Source: Eledone cirrhosa
Lineage: Eukaryota
Length of the DNA: 64,000 nt
NCBI GenBank assembly: GCA_964016885.1
Contig: OZ024742.1
Location: 265,236,001 to 265,300,000, forward strand
Reading direction: 5' to 3'
The translations under genes were made by a program, and so were the position numbers. Under the pieces are notes generated by a model. The model was not told the origin of the DNA and ran no database searches. It was given only the letters and a program-made list of their open reading frames with translations. The first letter of the stretch is position 1, and every line of letters begins with the position of its first letter. Below are positions 6,114 through 58,501 of the stretch, piece by piece.

Positions 6114-6248
<135 letters not shown>

Positions 6249-6348
6249 TGTATATATAGTGTATTTTGCAATACACTGTATGCTTAATTAAAAGCATTTT
6301 GAAGACCATACGCTATTGTTTTAAAGTAGTGACAATGTCACTTGCTTA

Positions 6349-6444
6349 AATTTTCAGCAAACAGGAGAGATAAACTGACAGAGCTCTGTTTTGTACTTGT
6401 TGGTACTTATCAAAGCTCACTAGTCTCCCTGTTTGCTGGAAATT
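6349..6444. other. ~96-nt imperfect hairpin
   Basis: aattttcagcaaacagg pairs with cctgtttgctggaaatt; inner gaga/tctc, gagct/agctc and gtac/gtac pairs. Confidence 0.7.
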
Positions 6445-6535
6445 ATGTCTGTTGGGTACTTATAGAATTCCAGTAATAATCAGGAACTGATTATACGGAG
6501 CAGTCGCATACACACACACGCACACACACACACAC

Positions 6536-30985: not shown

Positions 30986-32068
30986 TATCAATACAACCCC
31001 TAGAGGTGAACTAGCCTACAAATTTAGAAGGGCCCTAAAGAAACATAATCTCAATATTAAGATAGTAGAAAGACCTGGTACCTCCGTAAAAACACTTATT
31101 AGCAAGACATACCCGTTCCAAAGACCCTCATGTATAGATAAGAAATGTATAACCTGTAAAATAAGCCCCCATATTAACTGTAAAACTAGAAATGTAGTAT
31201 ATAGCATAAGATGTACTGAGGGACAATGTAGAAACAAAAATATAGTGTACATAGGTGAGACAGCTCGTAGTATAGGGGAACGAATAAATGAACACTGGCG
31301 AGACCTCCAAGATAGTAAAGAATCATCTGTGCTCTACCAACATGCTAAGATAGAACACAGGGGTAAATTAGAGAGCATAGAAATAAAAATAGAATCCACA
31401 CACAAGAAAGACGCAATGTTTAGGCAAATTACAGAGGCAGTAAGCATAAAAGAATTAAAACCAAAATTAAATAGAAAATATGAGTGGAACAGCAACATCA
31501 CAACTTACAATTAAGGACAAAATGAAAACACACACACACATATATAAACAACTTACAATTGAAAACACACACAAAATGAAAACACACACAAGACAAAATG
31601 AAAACACACACACACATAGAACAAACAACCAACCAACAATAAATAAATAAATAAACAAACAAATATAAATAGAAAAATAGAAAAATGAACACAAACACAC
31701 ACAGACACCCGGATGTGGCGCATGCGCAAACTGAGCACGCAACCCACACACAAACAAAATGGCGTAGGATAGAAGAAAGGAAAGGCACAGAAACGAAGAA
31801 AGAAATCCCCAGTCACTGAAGAGGTCACAGAGTGTGTGACGAAAGAACTATGACTATATATATATAAACAACTATCTGGTTGTGGAACCAACCAACCAAC
31901 CAGAAATTTATAAATTTGTAAATTTATAAATATATATTAAATTAAATTGAAGTGAAAGCAACTGGTGCGTGTGTTTCTTATTGGCAACATGACCCTCCCA
32001 AAGTATAACAATATCGGTTTCAACACACGATTTCAGATAAAGAATCTTGCTAAACAAATTCAGAAACG

Positions 32069-32070: not shown

Positions 32071-40190
<8,120 letters not shown>

Positions 40191-41392: not shown

Positions 41393-41517
<125 letters not shown>

Positions 41518-41692
41518 GTTATGAAGTAAAGTGCAATATTGGTTGTGTAAAAAGGTCCAATAACTTTATGTTAGCAATATTAAGTTCTCAACGCTTTTGT
41601 ATATCTCAAATTCCATTCGAGGGAACAGCTAGATGATTTAAAACGGAGTATAAGTATCAAAATGAAAATCCGAAGGCAAGGTAAAATTCCAA

Positions 41693-41780
41693 TCATTTAA
41701 TCACGACACATGTTTCAATAAGAGATAGATCGATTGTGAAGCCACGATCAATTATCACTGATCTCATCAGGTGAAAATGA
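41693..41780 (-). ncRNA. Type I hammerhead with long stem II (pLTR copy 1)
   Basis: tcattttcac CTGATGA [~47-nt imperfect hairpin with GCUU loop] GAAAC atgt GTC gtgattaaatga. Confidence 0.8.
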
Positions 41781-43341
41781 ATTGTCTTCAAATAAACGAT
41801 GTTACCTCACATAATTCATTCCCTCATATGGAGACACACCAGTCAGTCAGAGACGAGGCGACTGCTATTAGCTTAAAATTGAGGTCACAAAAGTTTTCAG
41901 ACTTCCATCGCTGCAAAAGACGCTGGACATCGAAACAAATCCGTAGGGATGCAGTCAGTCACAGTTAGAAGTAAGTGGATACACACACACCTCACACCCG
42001 CATATATCGCCTCGAGGTCAAATAAAAATAAAAATAAACATAAAAATAAATACATATACACACAACAACACAGTATTAAACCCGCAGAATTAGCGTGGGT
42101 GGGCACACATACACCCCAACACACACCGAAGCGACATTCGAGAAAAAGCATATATAAGAATGTACCAACACAGCAATCACCGAAAAGTTAGTTCGTAAAG
42201 CAACAGATATTATGTCGGTCAAATCTCAATTTGACGATGTAATCCGGAAATGTTAAGTTAACCAACGCTACACACACATACACACAGACACAAGCGCGTG
42301 CGCGCAAGTAAGTTCAGTTCAGTGTTCTGCTGTACGTGTAAAGATCCAATTGTAACATCAATATCTTCAAGTGTGTGTTATGGCAAAAGGTATACACACA
42401 TCCAAATCACCCAAAAAATGGAAGTCTGGGTATATACACATCCATGTGAAGAGCTCAATTTGACTAAGTAGATTGGAAATATTGGGTTAACCAACGCTAC
42501 ACACATATACACACACACACGTGCGTGCGCGCAAGTAAGTTCAGTTCAATGTTCTGCTATACGCGTATACATCCAATTGTAACATCCATATCTTCAAGTG
42601 TGTGTTATGGCAAAAGGTATACACACATCCGAATCGTCCAAAAGAAAGGGGGAGGGGTATCCGGGCATATACACATCCATGTGAAGAGCAGGCATTCAGC
42701 TCATGTCGAACTCCTTGTGTACCGCTGTCCAGTTGAGAATCAAAATAACCAAATCCGTGCGTGCAAGCAACTGCAGTGTGGGCCGGCTAGGGCTCTATGT
42801 AGGGTTGGGTATAGGGTAAATGAGCCCGCAAGTGCGATCTGCCGCCACATGGGCCATTGAGCTTTTAAGATAGTTGTTTGAGTGGTGGAGGTGTGTTATT
42901 CAGCATAGAAGGTGAAGTAAGGAAATACAGGACAGTGAATGTGTGTAGGCCCATTAATGGTGTGTCAGTATCATTGTTCAATCCGTAACAATGAGTCCTC
43001 CATGGTTAGATGATCACGCATCAAAACCTGGTGTAGAGTTCAATCGGTAGGAACGTGACATTCATAAATGTTGGAGCTCAATGTCTAAAGGAAGCGGGTA
43101 CTGTGTGTAGAGCTATGCATAGGGAGCGTAATCGGTCCTAACTAAGTGTGTAATCAATATAACTATTTACTAGCTAGGTATTCTAAAAGAGAGCACTCAG
43201 CTATGAGAACTCCGTGGAAACATGCCGAGTATCTTCGCAAGTGCGCAAACAATCTTAGCCGTCTAACTACCTAAGTGTGTGACTGTCCGTCTATTGAGAG
43301 GACTCTAGGGCTAAAGTAGAGAGGGGGGAGTTATTGGTAGG

Positions 43342-46084
43342 TTACCTTCCGAAAATCCTGCGGACGGTTTTAGAGGTTCTATGTTGACAGTTGCTGAAAA
43401 AATCCGCTCTTCTATTAATTAACAAGGGGCCGCCTCTAATAATATTGAAAGTCTCAGCTATACATAAATTGCAGACGCCAGTGCTGCCGTTATAAGGTTG
43501 GGCTGAACAAGCTATGGACCAGGATAAGGAGTGCTCTATATTCTGAAGTTTAAGCTTCCAGACTAATTCCCAAAGTGCCGTGCTATTTTTCTTATCTAAT
43601 CTATTAAAGGTATGGCGGTGATTATACCATCTAGCCTTAAATTCAGTGGCAGTTGCTCAAACATACCTAAAAGTTCTATCAGGAGTGGAGACCTTACAGT
43701 CGTAGACTATGTTTTTGGTAAGGCATTTCCCAGCCAAGGGGCAGGTGGCGGTACTTCTGCAGTTGCAATTTCTACTATCGATTTGGGTGGTTCGGGAAGG
43801 ACCACGATACCTTTGAGGTCGGGTCTCAATTCCACTCTGCTCTGGGATAAATTCACCGGGGTAGGGACGACCCGACTCGCCTCACGCGTATGAGTCAGTT
43901 CCTCAATAGAGCTGCCATTGTTCCTGCCATGCCTAAATCTCTCATTGGCTGTAAGTCTACTAAAATTCATCTTAGCTATATTCTGAGCTATGTTACTAGT
44001 TGTGGAGTAGGACAACTTAATAGTATTTCTATTGAATATTTTATAATATCTGTGCGATCTGGGGAATCTATTGTCTAAGGCCCTAGAGAAAAGCTTAGCT
44101 ATACTAGTGGTCAGGCCAGTGGAGTAAGGGGGATTAAACCACAGGACTTTTCTGGTCCGATGCTTCCTGTTCCTACTAACTATATTAGAATTACCACTCA
44201 CCCTAGTAGTATCCAATCTATTGTAACTGGAAATTACCTGTGGGTCGGAGGTGTCCAGGGGTGTCACGATTGTTTTCGGAATCGTCCCAAGTGTCCAAGG
44301 CGGTGTAACCCCCGTGCGGCTATTGGGGTTACCCTCGATAGCTAGGGTTGTATCAGGTATGCGTCTGCTACACTTATCCCAATTCCCTCTACTGGACCCT
44401 CGTTCCATACTGCGTTCAACCGTAGTTCTATCGGTTCCACAATTAAGGTTACTACTAGAGTTTCCGCTGGCGTTACGTTGCTCAGATCCAGTGTTAGTAC
44501 CTGGGTGGCTGTTTCTATTAGTACCAACTGCATTGGAACTAGACGGCAGTACAGCTTGAATACTATGTGAAACCTCCCTCGTATCCCGCCTGCTGTTAAC
44601 TAGAGTGTCACCATAAAGGCCTAAGCTATCGCGAACAAAGTTACTACTACTATTTAATGGACGTTTGAATGAGATTCCCTCGCTATGTCCTGCGCGTTCC
44701 AGGGCGTTATTATAGTAATTCGAGATCTTATTAAAGGTCCTGAAATTCTACTAGAGACGCTTTTCGTAATACCTTTAGTGACTATTCTAGGGTGGTTCGA
44801 TTTTGCGTTGACATAGTTTAGATTCTCGTTAGGTTTGTGGTAGGGTTGGAAGAGTCCTGAATTGAGGTCAAGTGTAACATCTAGAAAATTAACTATTTTT
44901 AAATTCTCTTCAAATACTATACTTAGGTCTATGCTCTTGAAGAATTTGCTAAGTTTTTTCCTCACCCTCTCTACCATACTATTACTATGGAACGACACAG
45001 TATACAAGACGTAGTCGCGGTAAGCGCCGCCTCCCAAGTGGGGCATCTCAGCTCCGAGACAGTCAAGGAGGTAAAGGCCCACCAGATCAGTCACCTGAGC
45101 CGAGTCCGAGGATCCCATAGTGATGTCGAAATTATCCAGCCAATCCCTCCTAGTCCACAGGTCACCGTTGAACTCAATTAAGGTTTTTCTAGCTAGGAGG
45201 ATAATGCTAATTTCCTCGGATGTAAGGTCGGTGTGTAAGCTAGCAAAATTAAGGGACCTACCTAGGAGAGTTGGAGAGATTGACGAGTAGTAATTAGAGA
45301 TATCGAACTGTATAAACTTAGTGCTATTCTTATTCTGCGATTTCTCAAACCAGTTAATTACCTCACTAGTTCCTGACCACAACTTGAGCTTCGATGTCCT
45401 AACTAGGGTGGGGATTATCTTATCAAGGATGTTTTTACTTACGATTCCTATCTCCGATTTCGAAGGGGCTATCAGCCTGACAGGTCTTAATGATTCAAAG
45501 TTCAATTTGTGGTCCTTCAGCAAAATTCTCGGGGTTCTAGGATGGAAGGGTTCGGTTTTATCCTCAATACCCAGTTTAATCATGACGCCATTGGCCTCCG
45601 TGTTAATTAAATCCAGGTTGGCCCGTGTAGTTTTTCTGTAGCTTTTCCTAAGTTCTCTGGTTATCAAATCATCATAAGTTACTCTATCCATATCGTCCAG
45701 GTTGCTAGTCTTGTCTGCGTGCACCAAAATGCCGGTCGAGTTCTTCAATTTTACTAGATCACCATTCAGTCGTCTCAGGTAAATATTTCTCCTGAGTGGG
45801 TTTTTCCTAAACTTAAGGTTGGACATTATGTTAGACATTTCAGTCTCGAATTCCTCCAAGTGTCTATGGTGTGGTGGATTCCTTCTGGACTTGAATATTC
45901 GCTCGAGGCCGCGCGTTCCCTCCCTGGGGTGGTCTGCTGGTGTTCCTCTGTCGACGTGGAAAGCCTTACAACGCATTCTACGGATAAAAGAATCCGATTT
46001 ACCTATGGCCAACCTAGTGAATTCTTTAATGTCGGGCAAAGGGATGTCCTTAAGTGAAGAGTTCACCGAGAATTTCTCCATCAT
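43342..46084 (-). pseudogene. PLE RT-GIY-YIG ORF, disrupted
   Basis: YRDD is mutated to YRDY; frameshifts near 44735 and 43845; TGA at 43657-43659 within the YVG motif. Confidence 0.9.
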
Positions 46085-46131
46085 ATTCCTTGCTTAACAG
46101 CATTAATTGCTCAACAAAAATAGGAGCTTTA

Positions 46132-49100
46132 AGTTGTTATATAGTAAGGTGCAATATTGGTTGTGTAAAAAGGTCCAATAACTTTATGTTAGCAATATTA
46201 AGTTCTCAACGCTTTTGTATATCTCCAATTCCATTCGAAGCAACAGCTAGATGATTTAAAACGGAGTATAAGTATCAAAATGAAAATCCGAAGGCAAAGT
46301 AAAATTCCAATCATTTAATCACGACACATGTTTCAATAAGAGATAGATCGATTGTGAAGCCACGATCAATTATCACTGATCTCATCAGGGAAAATGAATT
46401 GTCTTCAAATAAACGATGTTACCTCACATAATTCATTCCCTCATATGGAGACACACCAGTCAGTCAGAGACGAGGCGACTGCTATTAGCTTAAAATTGAG
46501 GTCACAAAAGTTTTCAGACTTCCATCGCTGCAAAAGACGCTGGACATCGAAACAAATCCGTAGGGATGCAGTCAGTCACAGTTAGAAGTAAGTGGATACA
46601 CACACACTCCACACCCGCATACATCGCCTCGATGTCAAAGAAAAATAAAAATAAACATAAAAATAAATACATATACACACAACAACACAGTATTAAACCC
46701 GCAGAATTAGCGTGGGTGGGCACACATACACCCCAACACACACCGAAGCGACATTCGAGAAAAAGCATATATAAGAATGTACCAACACAGCAATCACCGA
46801 AAAGTTAGTTCGTAAAGCAACAGATATTATGTCGGTCAAATCTCAATTTGACGATGTAAATCGGAAATGTTAAGTTAACAACCGCTAAACACACATACAC
46901 ACAGACACAAGCGCGTGCGCGAAAGTAAGTTCAGTTCAGGTTTCTGCTGTACGTGTAAAGATCCAATTGTAACATCAATATCTTCAAGTGTGTGTTATGG
47001 CAAAAGGTATACACACATCCGAATCAGCCAAAAAATGGAAGTCTGGGTATATACACATCCATGTGAAGAGCTCAATTTGACGATGTAGATTGGAAATATT
47101 GGGTTAACCAACGCTACACACATATACACACACACACGTGCGTGCGCGCAAGTAAGTTCAGTTCAATGTTCTGCTATACGCGTATACATCCAGTTGTAAC
47201 ATCCATAACTTCAAGTGTGTGTTATGGCAAAAGGTATACACACATCCGAATCGTCCAAAAGAAAGGGGGGGGGGGATATCCGGGTATATACACATCCATG
47301 TGAAGAGCAGGCATTCAGCTCATGTCGAACTCCTTGTGTACCGCTGTCCAGTTGATAATCAAAATAACCAAATCCGTGCGTGCAAGCAACTGCAGTGTGG
47401 GCCGGCTAGGGCTCTATGTAGGGTTGGGTATAGGGTAAATGAGCCCGCAAATGCGACCTCCCGCCATATGGGCCAATGAGCTTTTAAGATAGTTGTTTGA
47501 GTGGTGGAGGTGTGTTATTCAGCATAGAAGGTGAAGTAAGAAAATACAGGACAGTGAATGTGTGTAGGCCCATTAATGGTGTGTCAGTATCATTGTTCAA
47601 TCCGTAACAATGAGTCCTCCATGGTTAGATGATCACGCATCAAAACCTGGTGTAGAGTTCAATCGGTAGGAACGTGACATTCGTAAATGTTGGAGCTCAA
47701 TGTCTAAAGGAAGCGGGTAATGTGTGTAGAGCTATGCATAGGGAGCGTAATCGGTCCTAACTAAGTGTGTAATCAATATAACTATTTACTAGCTAGGTAT
47801 TCTAAAAGAGAGCACTCAGCTATGAGAACTCCGTGGAAACATGCCGAGTATCTTCGCAAGTGCGCAAACAATCTTAGCCGTCTAACTACCTAAGTGTGTG
47901 TCTGTCCGTTTATTGAGAGGACTCTAGAGCTAAAGTAGAGAGGGGGGAGTTATTGGTAGGTTACCTTCCAAAAATCCTGCGGACGGTTTTAGAGGTTCTA
48001 TGTTGACAGTTGCTGAAAAAATCCGCTCTTCTATTAATTAACAAGGGGCCGCCTCTAATAATATTGAAAGTTTCAGCTATACATAAATTGCAGACGCCAG
48101 TGCTGCCGTTATAAGGTTGGACTGAACAAGCTATGGACCAGGATTGGAAGTGCTCTATATTCTGAAGTTTAAGCTTCCAGACTAATTCCCAAAGTGCCGT
48201 GCTATTTTTCTTATCTAATCTATTAAAGGTATGGCGGTGATTATACCATCTAGCCTTAAATTCAGTGGCAGTTGCTCAAACATACCTAAAAGTTCTATCA
48301 GGAGTGGAGACCTTACAGTCGTAGACTATGTTTTTGGTAAGGCATTTCCCAGCCAAGGGGCAGGTGGCGGTACTTCTGCAGTTGCAATTTCTACTATCGA
48401 TCTGGGTGGTTCGGGAAGGACCACGGTAGCTTTGGGGTCGGGTCTCAGTTCCAGTCTGCTCTATGGGTAAATTCACCGGGGTAGGGGCGACCCGACTCGC
48501 CTCACGCGTATGAGTCAGTTCCTCAATAGAGCTGCCATTGTTCCTGCCATGCCTAAATCTCTCATTGGCTATAAGTCTACTAAAATTCATCTTAGCTATA
48601 TTCTGAGCTATGTTACTAGTTGTGGTGTAGGACAACTTAATAGTATTTCTATTGAATATTTTATAATATCTGTGCGATCTGGGGAATCAATTGTCTAAGG
48701 CCCTAGAGAAAAGCTTAGCTATACTAGTGGTCAGGCCAGTGGAGTAAGGGGGATTAAACCACAGGACTTTTCTGGTCCGATGCCTCCTGTTCCTACTAAC
48801 TATATTAGAATTACCACTCACCCTAGTAGTATCCAGTCTATTGTAACTGGAAATTACCTGTGGGTCGGAGGTGTCCAGGGGTGTCACGATTGTGTTCGGA
48901 ATCGTCCCAAGTGTCCAGGGCGGTGTAACACCCGTGCGGCTATTGGGGTTACCCTCGATAGCTTGGGTTGTATCAGGTATGCGTCTGCTACACCTGTCCC
49001 AATTCCCCCTAATGGACCCTCGTTCCATACTGCGTTCAACCGTAGTTCTATCGGTTCCACAATTAAGGTTACTACTAGAGTTTCCGCTGGCGTTACGTTG

Positions 49101-49350
49101 CTCAGACACAGTGTTAGTACCTGGGTGGCTGTTTCTATTAGTACCAACTGCATTGGAACTAGGCGGCAGTACAGCTTGAAGACTATGTGAAACCTCCCTC
49201 GTATCCCGCCTGCTGTTAACTAGAGTGTCACCATAAAGGCCTAAGCTATCGCGAACAAAGTTACTACTACTATTTAATGGACGTTTGAATGAGATTCCCT
49301 CGCTATGTCCTGCGCGTTCCAGGGTGCTATTATAGTAATTCGAGATCTTA
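46132..49350 (-). mobile_element. Upstream 5'-truncated tandem copy of the same PLE
   Basis: Highly similar direct repeat of 41513-44730 at an offset of about 4618 bp. Confidence 0.95.
46311..46397 (-). ncRNA. Hammerhead (pLTR copy 2; 1-nt deletion in stem I)
   Basis: Same core as 41693-41780. Confidence 0.7.
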
Positions 49351-49351
49351 A

Positions 49352-49607
49352 TTTTGTGACCTCAATTTTAAGCTAATAGCAGTCGCCTCGTCTCTGACTG
49401 ACTGGTGTGTCTCCATATGAGGGAATGAATTATGTGAGGTAACATCGTTTTTTTCTCCCTCATATCAAGAAATTTGAAGACAACTCATTTTCACCTCATG
49501 AGATCACTGATAATTGATCGTGGCTTCACAATCGATCTATCTCTTATTGAAACATGTGTCGTGATTAAATGATTCGAACTTTACCTTGCCTTCGGATTTT
49601 CATTTTA
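49352..49607 (+). mobile_element. Inverted pLTR fragment with a mutated hammerhead (CTCATGA) at 49485-49572
   Basis: Reverse complement of about 41655-41891. Confidence 0.9.
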
Positions 49608-49950: not shown

Positions 49951-52670
49951 TTCTGGATTTGTTTGGGAAGTTTCTTTATCTGAAAACGTGTGTTGAAACC
50001 GATATTGTTATGCTTGGGAGGGTGATGTTGCCAATAAGAAACACACGCACCAGTTGCTTTCACTTCAGTTTATTATAATAAATTTATAAATTTAGGAATT
50101 TATAAATTTCCGGTTGGTTGGTTGGTTCCACAACCAGATGATTGTTTATATTTTGTCAAAGTTCTTTCGTCACATATTCTGTGACCTCTTCAGTGGCTGG
50201 GGATTCTTTTCTTCGTTTGTGTGCCTCTCCTTTGTTCTGTCCTACGCTATCTTTTTTTCGTGTGTGTTGTGTGCTTAGTTTGCGCATGTGTTACATCTAG
50301 GTGTCTGTGTGTGTTTATATTTGTTTATTTATTTGTTTATTTACATGTTACTGGTTGGTTGTTTGTTCTATGTGCTTGTGTGTTTTTATTTTGTCCTTAA
50401 TTGTAAGCTGTGATGTTGCTGTTCCATTCGTGTTTTCTATTTAATTTTGTTTGGAATTCATTTATGTTTATTGCCTCTGTGAATTGACTAAACATTGCGT
50501 CTTTTCTGTGTTGTGTAGATTCTATTTTTATTTCTATGTTCTCTAATTTACCCTTATGTTCTATTTTAGCATGTTGGTAGAGTACAGATGATTCTTTACT
50601 ATCTTGAAGGTCTCGCCAGTGTTCATTTATCCGTTCACCTATACTACGAGCTGTCTCATCTATGTACACTACATTCTTATCTCTACATTGTCCTTCAGTA
50701 CATCTTATGCTATATACTATATTTCTAGTTTTACAGTTAATATGGGGGCTTAATTTACAGGTTATACATTTCTTATCTATAGAAGGAGGTCTTTGAAAAG
50801 GGTATGTATTGCTAATAAGTGTTTTTATGGAGGTACCTGGTCTTTCTACTATCTTAATATTGAGTTTATGTTTATCTAGGGCCCTTCTAAATGTGTAAGC
50901 TAATTTACCTCTAGGGGTTGTATCGATGAACATTACACTCTGGTATTTATTGCTATCATACCATGAGTTTATTCTATTAGCCTTATTCCTAGTTCTTTCT
51001 ATTCTATTCGAACATTTGCTCCTATACAAGGGGCAGGTCCTATTTGTGTCATTATTTACCATTTTTTTCCATTTGGTTCTGGCTCCTCTATACACTCTGA
51101 TTTTATCTCTCTGATTGTAACCAGAGAACTGCATACGGTGGATGAAGTGTTGTATGTGTCTCTCTAGTTCTTCGGGGTTGCACATGCGGGACAGGTTTCT
51201 CATCACCCGTACCAAATCCGCAATCAGTATGTTGATTTTGGTATGGTCTGAAACAGCTGAGTTTCGGTGGATCAGATATTTGGAAGTCATGGGTTTGGCA
51301 TAATGGGAATGGAGGATTTGTTTTTTGTTATTAATGGTATCTAACCAGAGCTCTGTGTCTAGTACAGGTAATCGATGGTTGGGGTGTTTACTTGGGTAGT
51401 CTATAGTAACTCTAATACTCTGGTGGATGGAGTTAGCTATTTGCTGGATGCTTTCCATTCTGTTTTTCTCTAATTCCTAACTGTTCTCTAGTGGGGGTGT
51501 CTTAACTACGATGTTTATATCATCAACGTAGCGGGAGTACATTATCAGGGTTAAGGGGTCTTCTAATTGTTCTTTAAGTTTAAGTTTAAGTCTACTGTCC
51601 CACCATACCATGAATAAGTTAGCTATGTCGCCTGCAATGCTAACACCAATAGCTGCTCCCTCCTCTTGGGCATATGTTTTTCCATTAAATTTGAACATAT
51701 GTTCCTTAAGGGTTAATTTTATGCTGGCCCCCACCGCATGTGCAATCATTTTCTTTAGTTCATAGTGTTTTTCGGGGGTCCGTATGGCTCTGGTCCACCC
51801 GTTTCATCTATCTGTGTGGGTTTTCTTGGCCATTGAGGTAATGGTAGCTGGTCTGTCTCTTGCTGGTCTTGTAGGGCACAGGTGGCTAAGGTCATATGTG
51901 TCTAGGTAATTATTACTATAGGTAAGTTTAATTAGGAGTCCCAGCTCACTGGTATCAATCCCACGGAACTGAACATTGCTCTCACTGATAATTTCTACGC
52001 ATTTCTCCACAGCACAATCCACGTCAATAGATGGATACAGGGACACAACATCCATACTACCTATTATGCAGTTTGTTAGGTCCCTAAATCGGTTACCCTC
52101 GTCCCTTCTGCTGAGGAGGTCCTCCGTGCTGTCACATACATCTGGGGACATTTCAATGATGGGGCGTATGATCAGGGAGAGGAAGTAGGACAGTCTGTAG
52201 TTACTAGCAATGTTAGCTCCACAGACTGGCCATGTTGGTGGTCCCGTGACAGGGTCACTGCCCGTGTTATGGTCTTTTCGAAGCCCATACAACGCTGGCA
52301 CGTCATTGTTCCAGGCCTGGAAGTTGTTGGCAGTCCTTTTGTTGGGCTGCATTATATTTGTCCACATCACCATATGGGCATTGAGGGCTTTTTCTCTATC
52401 CTCATGCTCTTGTGGAGTTACTTCTCTTGTGTTAGTGATGTGGGGTTGCATTGCCTGGATGTAGTTTGGCAGACTGTCAACCGACATTCTGCCAGACTTG
52501 TCTGTTGGAAAGCATGCTATCTCTCCATTACGTGAGCGCTGCATGAGCTTACGCAAGCCATTTGCAGATGTTTCTCCCAGTTGCTGGGCCTCTATTCTAT
52601 TATGCTTCTTGCTATACTGTTCTATAATATTTCTAAGTTTAGATCTAGCTATACTTAATTGTGCTTTAAC
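49949..52670 (-). mobile_element. PLE family 2, nearly complete RT + GIY-YIG in one frame with two stops; pLTR carries a degenerate hammerhead at 50154-50198
   Basis: DKSG, YGLRKDH, GSMDVVSLYPSI, QEEGAAIG, RYVDDI, LPVLD, CKTRNIVY, YIDETARSIGER. ORFs 51804-52718, 51477-51749 and 50397-51458 are all in frame. Confidence 0.93.
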
Positions 52671-52850
52671 AAACGCACGCAATTGCCGTCGCAGGTCGAT
52701 GAACAAACAGAAGCACAATTTAGTATAGACGACGACAAAGAAAAGGAACTGGGGTCGAAGGACTAGGGAGGGATGGGGGAAGGAGGAAATATAGAGGAAG
52801 CGATAAAGGAATGTAAAAGAAGATCTTACGTCTCCATTGGCAAGCAGGGG

Positions 52851-54228: not shown

Positions 54229-54295
<67 letters not shown>

Positions 54296-54411
54296 TATAT
54301 CTATATTTATATATATATATTTATATATATATATTTATACGGTATATATATATATATATATTTATACGCTATATATATATATGTATACGGTATATATACA
54401 TATTTATACGG

Positions 54412-54668
<257 letters not shown>

Positions 54669-54825
54669 GATATAATGCTCTGAAATAGCGATATATATGT
54701 GAAGACAAACATAGAATATTCGAAAATATTCTGTATGTTTATAATAAACATTTCGAAGACCCAATCGCTATAGAATAGAATACGTCACGTATTACAATTT
54801 GAGATTCTCGATAAAAGCAAGGAAA

Positions 54826-54868
54826 GTAACCTACGCGTTTCATTCTTATTAGAAATCATCAGGATTAC
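54826..54868 (-). ncRNA. Minimal type I hammerhead (left arm)
   Basis: Minus strand: gtaatc CTGATGA t-ttct-aata-agaa-t GAAAC gc GTA ggttac. Confidence 0.85.
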
Positions 54869-54996
54869 ATATCCAGTGCTTTTATCGAGAATGACACAGC
54901 TAGAGACTTATAGAATACTTTCAAACCAGTTCCTGTACACAGCTAAGTATTCTATAAGTCTCTAGCTGTGTCATTCTCGATAAAAGCACTGGATAT

Positions 54997-55039
54997 GTAA
55001 TCCTGATGATTTCTAATAAGAATGAAACGCGTAGGTTAC
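54997..55039 (+). ncRNA. Minimal type I hammerhead (right arm)
   Basis: gtaatc CTGATGA tttctaataagaat GAAAC gc GTA ggttac, with a 16-bp distal stem I extension (54973-54988 / 55046-55061). Confidence 0.88.
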
Positions 55040-55163
55040 TTCCCTTGCTTTTATCGAGAATCTCAAATTGTAATACGTGACGTATTCTATTCTATAGCGA
55101 TTGGGTCTTCGAAATGTTTATTATAAACATACAGAATATTTTCGAATATTCTATGTTTGTCTT

Positions 55164-55198
<35 letters not shown>

Positions 55199-55280
55199 GT
55201 TATTCCGGGTTGAATCGGAGGTAACCACAGTAAGTAAGGTACTCAATACATGGCAGAGTATAACAGTTTTAATATAGAAG

Positions 55281-55331
55281 AGATTCTACAGGACTATAAC
55301 TGTTTCATTCATTAGAAATCATCAGGAATCT
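55281..55331 (-). ncRNA. Type I hammerhead, probably the pLTR of the 57448-58195 PLE
   Basis: Minus strand: agattc CTGATGA tttctaatgaat GAAACAG ttatagtc CTGTA gaatct. Confidence 0.85.
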
Positions 55332-56004
55332 GGGTATCAAAAAATAAATATGGTATTTATAGGTCTCTACAAGTGGTAGGAGAGGGTGGGGAGTGGGATG
55401 GGTGCAGGTCATTGGTTGATAGAAAAGGGAATTCATTAAAAGCTAATTCTACAAGGCTATAGTTTATTTTTATTTTTATTTATATTTATTTATGTTTTTA
55501 GAGTAACAAAGGCAGACAGAATTCTATAAACAGGTTCCGGATGGCATACCATTCCTTGTCAATAAGTTTCTCTTAAGCTAACAGATGTCTATAAAGTCAG
55601 TGGGGGGTCAGTTATGGTCGATAGAATTAAAGAAAAGGGAGATTCTTTAAAAGCTAAAGTCATTAAGGTTCTACTAAGTGACAAAGGTCTAGAGAATTCT
55701 GCAGACAGATTCAAAATACTGAGTGCATATCTTACTATTATCTTCGAACTTCTCTTAAACTAATCAACTATATGCCAAAAATCAACAGACACATTCACAA
55801 AAAAACAAAAAAACAAAAAAACAAAAAAACACATACTCACTCACACACTTATGCGCAACCATAAACACACACACAAACACATATACACACATAAAAACAC
55901 ACACACATATATAAAAAATATATAAATATAAATATATATTCATGTACACACACATACATACACACATACATACATACATACATACATATACAATACATAT
56001 ACAC

Positions 56005-56065
<61 letters not shown>

Positions 56066-56092
56066 CATACACATATACACATATACACAGAT

Positions 56093-56149
<57 letters not shown>

Positions 56150-56258
56150 GATACACACACACATACACATACATACACACAGACATACATATATACACAA
56201 GTAAATACACTCACACGCATACATACAAACACGAGTATACATATGTATAAATATTTAT

Positions 56259-56299
<41 letters not shown>

Positions 56300-56306
56300 A
56301 ACACAC

Positions 56307-56338
<32 letters not shown>

Positions 56339-56438
56339 ATAAACATATATATAAAAACACATATATATATATATATATATACACATATATACATATATAT
56401 ATATATATACAGACACATATATATATATATATATACAC

Positions 56439-56471
<33 letters not shown>

Positions 56472-56590
56472 CACACACATACACATATATATATATATAT
56501 ACACATATATATATATATCCATACATATACAAACATACACATACATACACAGACCTATACATAAATATACAAATATATATACAGACATAT

Positions 56591-56639
<49 letters not shown>

Positions 56640-56673
56640 GCGCACACACATACATACATACACACACACACAT

Positions 56674-56728
<55 letters not shown>

Positions 56729-56773
56729 CACACACACATACACACATACATACACATACACATACATACACAC

Positions 56774-56848
<75 letters not shown>

Positions 56849-56965
56849 TACATATACACATATATATACACATATACACGCACATACATACACACATACA
56901 CATACATATACATAAACATACATACATACATACATACATACATACAAACACATATATACACATAT

Positions 56966-57066
<101 letters not shown>

Positions 57067-57150
57067 CATACATATACACAAACATATACATACATATACA
57101 TACATAAATATACACACATAAAACACATATACACACAAACATATATATAT

Positions 57151-57229
<79 letters not shown>

Positions 57230-57447
57230 TACACATATACACATATACAAACAAATATATACACATACAAGTAAATAGGTACTCAATAAATATACGCATA
57301 TACGCAGGCACATAAAGACACCTCTACAGGCAGAAAATGTAGATACGAAAGAGGTACTCACATAACCATAGTGGCCGTGTTTCAGGTTGAGGAGGGGTGG
57401 GGGTAGGGTGGGGAGGAGGTATAGGGGCCAATAGGGGGAGGTCGTTT

Positions 57448-58191
57448 TTAGCCATCGGGCTTTAACACTGGCTTAAAGTGTTTGAATGTTGCAAAGTTCT
57501 TGTGCATGCAGTTCGGGCAGTGTTCAGAGAGTTTGTTCAGTAGCGGGCCCTTGGCGAATAAAATTTCGTAGCTCTCTGAAATACAAAGGTCGCAGCCCTT
57601 GTGTCCTCCGTTGTAAGAGCGCGCTTTCTGGAGTATTTTCCAATTAAGCGTGAAGGGGGTGGAGTTCCTTTTGAGGTCCCAAACGTAGGAGGCTAGTGTT
57701 GTTTGATTTGATTTATCCGGTCTTCTGAAGGAGTGGGTATGGGCATACCAACGGGTCTTAAAGTTGTTGGAGGTCATGCCGATGTAAGTTTTTTTGCAAT
57801 CCTCGGTGCCTGAGATGACATCGCATTTGTATACGATGTCATTTGTGAGGCATTTGTTTTCTAGTGGGCATGTTTCCTTATAAAGGCAATTACATAGAGC
57901 CCCAGTCCGGGGATTGGTTTCGGAGGTGGTTGGCTTATTTAGTTTAGAGTTGTGGTTGGCTATATTCCTAGCTAGGTTAGGTGTGGTGGAGTAAGACAGT
58001 CTTATAGTGTTCTTATTAAAGATGGTGAAGTACCTATGTTGTATGGGGAAGTGTAATTTCAGTAAAGTGAAGAAAATCCTAGCTATCGGAGTAGATACCT
58101 CTCTATTGAAGGGAGGGTTGTACCAGCTAATCTGCCTATGTCTATTCCTCCTCTGCAATTTTGCGGTGGTTTCTAGGTAAGTTATCTTATC

Positions 58192-58195
<4 letters not shown>
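57448..58195 (-). mobile_element. Hydra-like PLE 3' fragment (open GIY-YIG domain); microsatellite-rich 3' region probably extends to about 55197
   Basis: ISWYNPPF, CNCLYKETCPLENKCL, IVYKC, YIGMTSNNFKTR, CDLCISE; 5' end abuts (TA)n. Confidence 0.92.
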
Positions 58196-58252
<57 letters not shown>

Positions 58253-58501
58253 TATATAATAAGCAAAATGTCGGGCGAAACTACATGGGACGTGGGTGCA
58301 CATGAAGTGTGAACACTCTAGTAGAATCTTACATTCTGAAAAATGTTGGTGGAAAATGTTTGAATCAGCTGAGACTATCTTCACAATTTTTAGACAAAAA
58401 ATTCTTTTCAAAATATCCAGAGCTACTGAGAAGCAAATAAGGGAGAGTATTTCTATATTCAAAGCTAGTCTAAATGTTTGGAAAGAATTTTTAGGCAATG
58501 C

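What the first reader, a model, noticed from the sequence alone, without database searches (positions are those of the whole stretch)
54691..55174. Non-coding inverted dimer with a hammerhead on each strand (retrozyme/viroid-like element)
Seen: a ~230-nt unit duplicated in inverted orientation with one mismatch, embedded in (TA)n. Each arm has a complete minimal hammerhead (ACGCGT stem III) whose stem I is extended by a perfect 16-bp helix (attctcgataaaagca/tgcttttatcgagaat). There are further hairpins (aatacgt-g-acgtatt; agaatatt-ttcg-aatattct) and no ORF. Established: PLE pLTRs and metazoan non-LTR retrozymes carry such hammerheads, usually as direct tandem repeats. Inference: this is a young non-autonomous ribozyme element mobilised by the neighbouring PLEs. 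A transcript from either strand contains a hammerhead, and a read-through transcript can instead fold into a 230-bp dsRNA rod that would mask it and feed ADAR or Dicer.
Basis: partly seen in the sequence, partly recalled or inferred. Interest (0 to 1): 0.8.

Follow-up and report, generated by a model that had tools for sequence, protein, structure and literature searches.

The report
Two-armed clonal ribozyme retrotransposon insertion
This palindrome is one short copy of a 312-base hammerhead-ribozyme repeat that lies in thousands of units in this genome, mostly as two back-to-back arms made of the same unit, which likely records a Penelope-type enzyme copying what was probably one circular RNA from both ends of a DNA break.

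Summary
The palindrome is real (230-bp arms, one mismatch), but it is not a dimer of a 230-nt unit. It is two 5'-truncated 257-nt pieces of a 310-312-nt non-LTR retrozyme (type I hammerhead, no ORF), joined head-to-head over 3 nt of microhomology inside (TA)n.

The geometry is the family rule. Of 71 loci, 49 are two-armed, all divergent, and 47 of the 49 have one short 3' end and one end with an extra 25-40-nt tail: the known Penelope-like-element (PLE) footprint. Units within a locus are clones across both arms (205 shared alleles uniform, 3 not; 12 haplotypes among 15 long-array loci), and 5' ends do not pile up at the cleavage site.

Best reading: a PLE protein primes from both sides of a cut, once at each of two RNA start sites, and reads one monomer repeatedly, probably as a circle. 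This copy has one hammerhead per strand, predicted to need a partner and to be masked by the rod, so it is probably a dead end. The helper PLE was not found; cleavage and circles are untested. Retrozymes and the PLE footprint are each known; their union with clonal arms I did not find in print.

The parts
54230..54665 (.). (TA)n target, left side
   Evidence: (TA array 54230-54665)
54664..54920 (-). Left arm: retrozyme monomer positions 224-312 then 1-168 (numbered from the predicted cleavage site); 3' end points left and carries the tail
   Evidence: (257 nt, 99% to a natural unit)
54664..54690 (-). PLE-type tail (monomer 142-168), present on this arm only
   Evidence: the same tail end recurs at 158-174 in other loci
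54826..54868 (-). Type I hammerhead of the left arm (C3 at 54862, predicted cut after 54832 on -); its 16-bp stem I extension spans 54804-54892
54918..54920 (.). 3-nt microhomology (CTT) joining the two 5' ends; the junction occurs once in the assembly
54918..55174 (+). Right arm: monomer positions 197-312 then 1-141; short 3' end merging into (TA)n. 54921-54944 is the part without a mirror
   Evidence: 100% to a natural unit
54973..55061 (+). Hammerhead domain of the right arm: 16-bp helix 54973-54988/55046-55061, 6-bp stem I 54997-55002/55034-55039, core from 55003, 3-bp stem II with U-U at 10.1-11.1, palindromic stem III 55027-55032, predicted cut after 55033
55094..55174 (+). Region best conserved among sister families, holding the UUCG hairpin (55133-55152) and the short end; inferred binding and initiation site for the PLE protein
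   Evidence: function inferred from PMC11167929
55167..55197 (.). (TA)n target, right side
55198..58317 (-). Neighbour, not part of the element: 5'-truncated young PLE ('PLE-R') ending in the same (TA)n, with its own hammerhead (C3 at 55325) and a GIY-YIG ORF end at 57448-58317

Best explanation
This is a 5'-truncated, two-armed insertion of a 310-312-nt hammerhead retrozyme, likely made when a Penelope-like element's protein cut a (TA)n site and copied what was probably one circular monomer RNA from both DNA ends. Shown: tandem non-coding units; divergent arms; one short and one tailed 3' end per insertion; (TA)n at the ends; microhomology at the centre; one unit haplotype per locus across both arms. 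Inferred steps: (1) tandem loci are transcribed, and neighbouring hammerheads pair through the ACGCGU palindrome as a double hammerhead and release monomers; (2) a host ligase closes them into circles; (3) a PLE RT/GIY-YIG protein, probably a dimer, binds the conserved region at positions 60-170, cuts both strands of (TA)n and starts one cDNA at about 134-141 and the other at about 166-168; (4) each cDNA runs round the circle for under one to more than 26 turns; (5) the two cDNAs anneal by a few bases and are repaired into a head-to-head pair. Here both stopped after 257 nt, so each strand holds one hammerhead and the copy probably cannot make monomers or circles.
For: Architecture: 49 of 71 loci are two-armed, all divergent; 47 of 49 have one short and one tail end, none has two of a kind; in the 39 loci taken in positional order, 27 are two-armed and 26 of the 27 are short+tail; pooled 89 loci, 62 of 63. 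109 of 120 3' ends abut (TA)5. 18 of 27 scorable junctions overlap by >=2 nt, against 18% of random joins. This is the PLE footprint (PMC8557442, PMC3846280), and a PLE protein extends both strands from two RNA start sites that delimit the tail (PMC11167929). One template: arms of a locus differ by 0.8% against 2.7% between loci (44 loci, p = 1.5e-9); 15 rare alleles lie on both arms against 0.34 after permutation; 109 of 129 whole units equal their locus's commonest unit, with 12 haplotypes in 15 loci; 205 both-arm alleles are in every unit, 3 are not, and 8 are private to one locus, although 172 unit-private changes exist in 504 units. 5' ends are not enriched at the cut site (6 of 120 against 3.8 expected). 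The double hammerhead costs 0.7 kcal/mol over the free fold. No locus-level variant falls in 14 core columns, while N7, loop II, stem I and 10.1 vary.
Against: No helper found: no unit ran into a PLE ORF in 36 + 20 + 10 + 30 loci; the young PLE next door shares only the hammerhead core, 26 of 28 nt. Arrays also change after insertion: L134 and L135 share a junction but differ in unit number; 7 rare alleles sit in several units of one arm only; two alleles recur in the 26-unit arm of L162. L043 has an allele on both arms but in only some units, which fits a multimer template. Rfam finds no hammerhead, and 10.1-11.1 is U-U in 83 of 86 loci. In vitro a PLE used uncleaved RNA (PMC11167929), and 8 of 9 frog retrozyme dimers did not cleave (10.64898/2026.07.22.740005). 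22 of 49 junctions could not be scored for exact microhomology.
Confidence: 0.66

Rival explanations
1. Same PLE two-ended insertion, but the template is a long uncleaved read-through RNA from homogeneous source arrays, or a monomer re-read by template jumping; no circle is needed.
For: HHR cleavage was dispensable for insertion in vitro (PMC11167929). L043 fits a multimer read in register. A strand excess of 344-513 hits hints at large one-strand arrays that I could not locate. Only part of the loci were sampled, so 'private' alleles may have unsampled sources.
Against: Linear copying cannot spread a new mutation to every unit, yet 12 haplotypes occur in 15 loci, each clonal, and uniform alleles outnumber in-register partial ones 205 to 3, although unit-private changes are common. 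Template jumping between cut monomers should leave 5' ends or scars at the cut site; ends are not enriched there.
Confidence: 0.2
2. Short PLE-type inverted insertions are expanded and homogenised afterwards in DNA (unequal crossover, gene conversion between arms), as proposed for retrozyme tandems in 10.64898/2026.07.22.740005.
For: Post-insertion unit changes are seen (L134/L135, L044, L064, L139, L162).
Against: The loci with least mutation are the most clonal and among the longest (L143 12 of 12, L163 16 of 16 units identical), leaving little time for many rounds. Both arms would have to expand independently in phase, and older loci keep unit-private changes unhomogenised.
Confidence: 0.09
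3. The inverted form is a selected dsRNA switch that masks the ribozyme and feeds Dicer or ADAR.
For: A read-through RNA is predicted to form a rod of -390 kcal/mol with hammerhead pairs at probability 0; most loci could form such rods.
Against: Junction positions and arm lengths are scattered and uncorrelated (rho 0.05, 47 loci), as expected of a by-product. No A>G over T>C excess: 6 vs 4 (p = 0.26) in uniform alleles, 12 vs 21 in private ones. dsRNA may still arise as a side effect.
Confidence: 0.04
4. Fold-back assembly artefact.
For: No independent read covering this locus's junction was seen.
Against: The arms are unequal (tail, 24-nt centre, one mismatch); the short+tail rule holds at 62 of 63 loci with different junctions; raw Illumina reads of two other samples hold tandem joints and two opposite-strand joints of the family, each in both samples.
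Confidence: 0.01

Closest known systems
Metazoan non-LTR retrozymes (Cervera & de la Pena 2020, PMC7229834; Li et al. 2026, 10.64898/2026.07.22.740005)
   Same: Non-coding tandem units of a few hundred bases, GC below 50%, a type I hammerhead with a weak palindromic stem III in each unit. Circle-templated reverse transcription and PLE helpers are proposed there.
   Different: Those papers support the PLE link by shared ribozyme type, co-occurrence and pLTR phylogeny. The main text of PMC7229834 has no 'inverted'; the preprint has no 'tail' or 'orientation', and 'inverted' only in a reference. The preprint favours local amplification for tandems. Here the insertions carry the PLE footprint and clonal arms.
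EN+ Penelope-like element insertions (Arkhipova 2013, PMC3846280; Craig 2021, PMC8557442; Frangieh 2024, PMC11167929)
   Same: Head-to-head inverted 5'-truncated copy, 30-40-bp tail often at one end only, microhomology joins, AT-rich or (TA)n targets, two internal RT start sites.
   Different: No ORF; multi-unit arrays on both arms. The one-short-one-tail pairing is nearly absolute here, whereas in vitro the two strands showed no start-site difference. Arkhipova 2013 explained head-to-head inversions by self-priming on an antisense template.
Non-autonomous Chlamys elements such as MRC1 (PMC8557442)
   Same: Non-autonomous PLE derivatives with multicopy head-to-tail insertions.
   Different: Naiad/Chlamys lack canonical hammerheads, and their non-autonomous elements resemble their helpers at the 3' end; no such helper was found here.
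Viroids and viroid-like RNAs with hammerheads in both polarities (PMC7761336)
   Same: Size about 310 nt, structured, hammerhead, probable circle.
   Different: The unit has a hammerhead in one polarity only and lies in chromosomal DNA; the two strands carry ribozymes only because of the inversion.

Membership tests
Metazoan non-LTR retrozyme | Tandem repeats of about 150-450 bp | tested here: met
   310-312-nt period, up to 26 whole units in one arm
Metazoan non-LTR retrozyme | Type I hammerhead motif in each unit | tested here: met
   Core, stems I-III by sequence; 4 changes in 2351 core letters; no locus-level core variant. U-U at 10.1-11.1 departs from the canonical pair; no Rfam hit
Metazoan non-LTR retrozyme | No coding capacity, no LTR, GC under 50% | tested here: met
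   Longest ATG frame 34 aa, GC 35%; ends are (TA)n-joined, no LTRs. PBS/PPT not searched
Metazoan non-LTR retrozyme | [quoted passage not shown] | tested here: not met
   One hammerhead per strand at 54664-55174; met by many other loci of the family
Metazoan non-LTR retrozyme | Self-cleavage; expression as linear and circular RNA | not testable with these tools
   Needs bench work or RNA reads; only folding energies were computed
Metazoan non-LTR retrozyme | Target-site duplication longer than 4 bp when present | tested here: inconclusive
   6 of 63 loci show a junction-anchored repeat with non-TA letters, against 1.0 (max 4) in shuffles; compound microsatellites could give the same
PLE-type insertion | Inverted, 5'-truncated copy joined head-to-head | tested here: met
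   49 of 71 loci, all divergent
PLE-type insertion | 30-40-nt tail at one end | tested here: met
   Short end 134-141 (blurred by TA; about 123-128 in two loci), tail end 158-174, mode 166-168; 62 of 63 two-armed loci
PLE-type insertion | AT-rich or microsatellite target | tested here: met
   109 of 120 3' ends abut (TA)5
Autonomous PLE / pLTR of a PLE | Unit attached to an RT + GIY-YIG ORF | tested here: not met
   No unit continues into a PLE ORF in the loci checked by tblastn
Non-autonomous derivative of a named PLE | Sequence shared with a helper's pLTR or initiation region | tested here: inconclusive
   Only the hammerhead core matches PLE-R (26 of 28 nt); few PLE 5' ends were available
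Viroid-like RNA | Ribozymes in both polarities of one unit | tested here: not met
   Motif scans found the hammerhead in element sense only; no ribozyme family in Rfam at E<=1

The most novel reading that the evidence does not exclude
These arrays are a genomic record of two-ended rolling-circle reverse transcription: one PLE protein dimer holds one circular ribozyme RNA, uses each of its two start sites exactly once, one per side of a double-strand cut in (TA)n, and spools out up to 8 kb of identical units in both directions. That would be direct evidence that animal retrozyme circles are the transposition intermediate and that PLEs mobilise them, and it would explain PLE inverted ends and one-sided tails without an antisense template.
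Probability: 0.55. Interest if true: 0.82.

Novelty: new variant of a known kind. Interest (0 to 1): 0.64.

Why it matters
Two open questions meet here: how animal retrozymes move (circle template and PLE helper were proposed, not shown), and how PLEs make inverted ends with a one-sided tail. A 310-nt non-coding unit with thousands of young copies gives a minimal substrate and many natural products with readable start sites, strand pairing and template haplotype. It predicts a simple assay: PLE protein + circle + (TA)n should give two multimeric cDNAs starting about 30 nt apart. The many long inverted arrays are also a likely source of dsRNA and of genome instability. The single copy in this window is an ordinary, probably dead member.

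Tried and rejected
Rfam scan: only microRNA-hairpin and snoRNA noise, no hammerhead. Pfam on 11 window ORFs: 2 of 11 hit; the intact PLE-R ORF reached only a sub-threshold GIY-YIG match, so its PLE identity rests on motifs, layout and Atlas neighbours, and its clade is not assigned. Helper search through sister-family loci, singletons and variant tail motifs found none. An apparent pile-up of 5' ends at the cleavage site was an edge effect of my reference phase and vanished with a second phase. Apparent two-unit periodicity in L044 is partly one CpG and is arm-restricted, so a dimer circle was dropped. The large one-strand array suggested by strand excess was not located. The alignment fold mis-registered stem I, so only stem II and the 3' hairpins count as covarying there. 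ADAR trace: none. TSD: inconclusive. No RNA holder listed. Very high contig depths in runs X1 and X4 were not used, as their library type is unknown or guessed. Endless ORF on the 312-nt circle: every frame has stops. Lunse et al. 2017 could not be read (title seen in a reference list). Three look-ups in earlier findings returned nothing. Rows dropped: L135 and L169 as duplicates; L135.

Full report
Observation. Positions 54691-54920 and 54945-55174 are reverse complements over 230 bp with one mismatch and a 24-nt unpaired centre. Each strand carries a hammerhead core; the 16-bp helix and the two hairpins appear in the fold of the right arm, which none of 200 shuffles matched. Rfam gave no hammerhead at E<=1. 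The longest ATG frame is 34 aa.

What the unit is. A search of the 3.0-Gb genome with one arm gave 151 matches from 40 of 474 candidate regions, mostly as tandems with a 312-nt period. An exact 43-mer over the cut site occurs 1,638 times, a two-letter-degenerate core 3,251 times, and the tail motif shared with sister families 21,739 times; reversed controls gave 0. Numbered from the predicted cleavage site, the window's left arm (54664-54920, -) is positions 224-312 then 1-168, and the right arm (54918-55174, +) is 197-312 then 1-141. They overlap by CTT. The 'spacer' and the 27 nt left of 54691 are ordinary monomer sequence present on one arm only. The junction occurs once in the assembly.

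The geometry is the family rule. I examined 36 loci chosen by score and 35 more from the first 100 positional hits. Of these 71, 49 are two-armed and all 49 are head-to-head. 47 of the 49 have one short 3' end (about 134-141, where the unit itself reads ATATATA; about 123-128 in two) and one tail end (158-174); none has two of a kind, and two have one end cut otherwise. Independent 50:50 choice would give about 7e-15 (my arithmetic). In the 39 loci taken in positional order, 27 are two-armed and 26 of those pair short with tail. Adding 20 loci (the last 9 picked partly for length) and dropping two duplicates gives 62 of 63. 109 of 120 3' ends abut (TA)5. 18 of 27 scorable junctions overlap by at least 2 nt against 18% of random joins; 22 could not be scored. 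An older sister family shows the same two ends about 24 nt apart. Raw Illumina reads from two samples of coded organism A hold the tandem joint (2,472 and 1,939 reads) and two opposite-strand joints, each in both samples (98 and 110 reads from one start; 2 and 3 reads), but not this locus's junction.

This is the known PLE footprint. PMC8557442 (passages) and PMC3846280 (passages) describe an inverted 5'-truncated copy, a 30-40-bp tail often at one end only, and microsatellite targets. PMC11167929 (parts 1-2 of 4: main text and start of methods) shows a PLE protein cutting and extending both strands, starting internally at two RNA sites that delimit the tail, predicted to be a dimer, and not needing ribozyme cleavage in vitro.

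One template per insertion. Arms of a locus differ by 0.8% against 2.7% between loci (44 loci, p = 1.5e-9), and 15 rare alleles lie on both arms against 0.34 (max 3) after permutation. In the 310-311-nt subfamily, 109 of 129 whole units equal their locus's commonest unit; 15 loci hold 12 haplotypes; in all 10 loci with whole units on both arms, the commonest unit is on both. Over 61 two-armed loci, 205 non-standard alleles found on both arms are in every covering unit and 3 are not; most of the 205 are subfamily alleles, but 8, in 8 loci, are private. Unit-private changes are common (172 in 504 units), so the assembly does not flatten arrays, and linear copying of such arrays should leave partial alleles in register. 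Many of the haplotype alleles also appear in raw reads. 5' ends are not enriched at the cut site (6 of 120 against 3.8, p = 0.19), so the template was not a cut linear monomer. A monomer bottleneck followed by repeated reading, most simply a circle, fits best. Against: L043; seven arm-restricted multi-unit alleles; L134/L135 with one junction but different unit counts; two recurring alleles in L162. Arrays therefore also change after insertion.

The ribozyme. Stem I is 6 bp plus a 16-bp extension, stem II 3 bp on a U-U pair (A-U in 3 of 86 loci), stem III 2 bp round a palindromic loop. PMC4209133 (passages) states that such motifs cleave poorly as monomers and can fold as dimers in tandem repeats. 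In a natural tandem dimer the double hammerhead is at -110.9 against -111.6 kcal/mol for the free fold. In the right arm alone stem II has probability 0.07-0.08, and in the whole insert all hammerhead pairs have probability 0. Locus-level variants occur at 10 of 51 columns round the ribozyme, at N7, loop II, stem I and 10.1, none in 14 core columns. Sister families change both sides of stem II, and a third has U3-A8 in place of C3-G8 (that this swap occurs in natural hammerheads is recalled). Cleavage itself is untested.

Helper. The window is a nest of PLE fragments. The right neighbour is young (40 of 40 scored copies 99-100% identical, 2,315 candidates), ends in (TA)n (11 of 12 loci), has an intact 713-aa ORF in L099 and shares 26 of 28 nt of hammerhead core, but not the initiation region. 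No retrozyme unit ran into a PLE ORF in 36 + 20 + 10 + 30 loci. It is a candidate, no more.

The rod is predicted, but scattered junctions and uncorrelated arm lengths mark it as a by-product, and copies show no A>G excess.

Comparison and novelty. PMC7229834 (abstract, passages, discussion) and PMC7761336 (passages) propose circle-templated multimeric cDNA and PLE helpers. The 2026 preprint 10.64898/2026.07.22.740005 (parts 1-3 of 5, all main text) adds co-occurrence and pLTR phylogeny, and favours local amplification for tandems. Eight searches listed no paper reporting inverted, tailed, clonal retrozyme arrays; I saw only listings for most hits. I read no supplements (Supplementary Figure S9 of PMC7229834 and the preprint's tables may bear on this), and Repbase and subscription journals were out of reach. 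Verdict: a member of the non-LTR retrozyme kind whose insertions carry the PLE footprint. PLE-type mobilisation about 0.9, monomer-circle template about 0.7, whole mechanism 0.66. This copy is probably dead; the family is the finding.

Noticed in passing
window 55198-58317 (-); L099 1489-7246; L100: Young (TA)n-targeting PLE with long microsatellite-rich 3' region, hammerhead in its pLTR and an intact 713-aa ORF elsewhere; it also forms divergent pairs.
   Followed up: partly
window 41515-44730 and 46133-49350: 3.2-kb direct repeat (97.6%): partial-tandem PLE with ORF pieces 44654-46093, 43707-44747, 48687-49361 (-) and a 227-bp internal repeat.
   Followed up: no
window 49951-52850 (-) and 30991-32065 (+): Another PLE family (RT and GIY-YIG pieces) with hammerheads at 50193 (-) and 31816 (+); the two copies are 87-90% alike and inverted.
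   Followed up: no
window 6236-6507 (-); L153, L154: Older relative of the retrozyme whose hammerhead core has U3-A8 instead of C3-G8.
   Followed up: partly
window 11705 (-), 11311 (-): Further minimal hammerhead motifs, with relatives in L046, L051, L034, L061, L049: the genome holds many hammerhead families.
   Followed up: no
genome-wide: Strand excess of 344 and 513 hits suggests one or more very large single-strand arrays of the unit; not located.
   Followed up: partly
L134 and L135: Same junction and same right flank about 470 kb apart, but different unit numbers: a duplicated insertion that changed afterwards.
   Followed up: partly
L143, L148, L152: A haplotype with A at 10.1 restores a Watson-Crick 10.1-11.1 pair; L143 and L152 also add a C in stem I. 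A natural activity series for cleavage tests.
   Followed up: no
89 loci: Locus-uniform rare alleles are richer in A>G/T>C (10 of 22) than unit-private ones (33 of 172; Fisher p = 0.011), perhaps an RNA-stage error spectrum; polarity is uncertain.
   Followed up: partly
PLE 5' regions in L034, L032, L099, L102: A GAGCAC-like word lies shortly before the ATG of several PLEs and within the retrozyme tail; a lead for a shared initiation signal, untested.
   Followed up: no
window 32071-40189: An 8-kb degenerate (AT)n array with 23-31-nt higher-order units.
   Followed up: no
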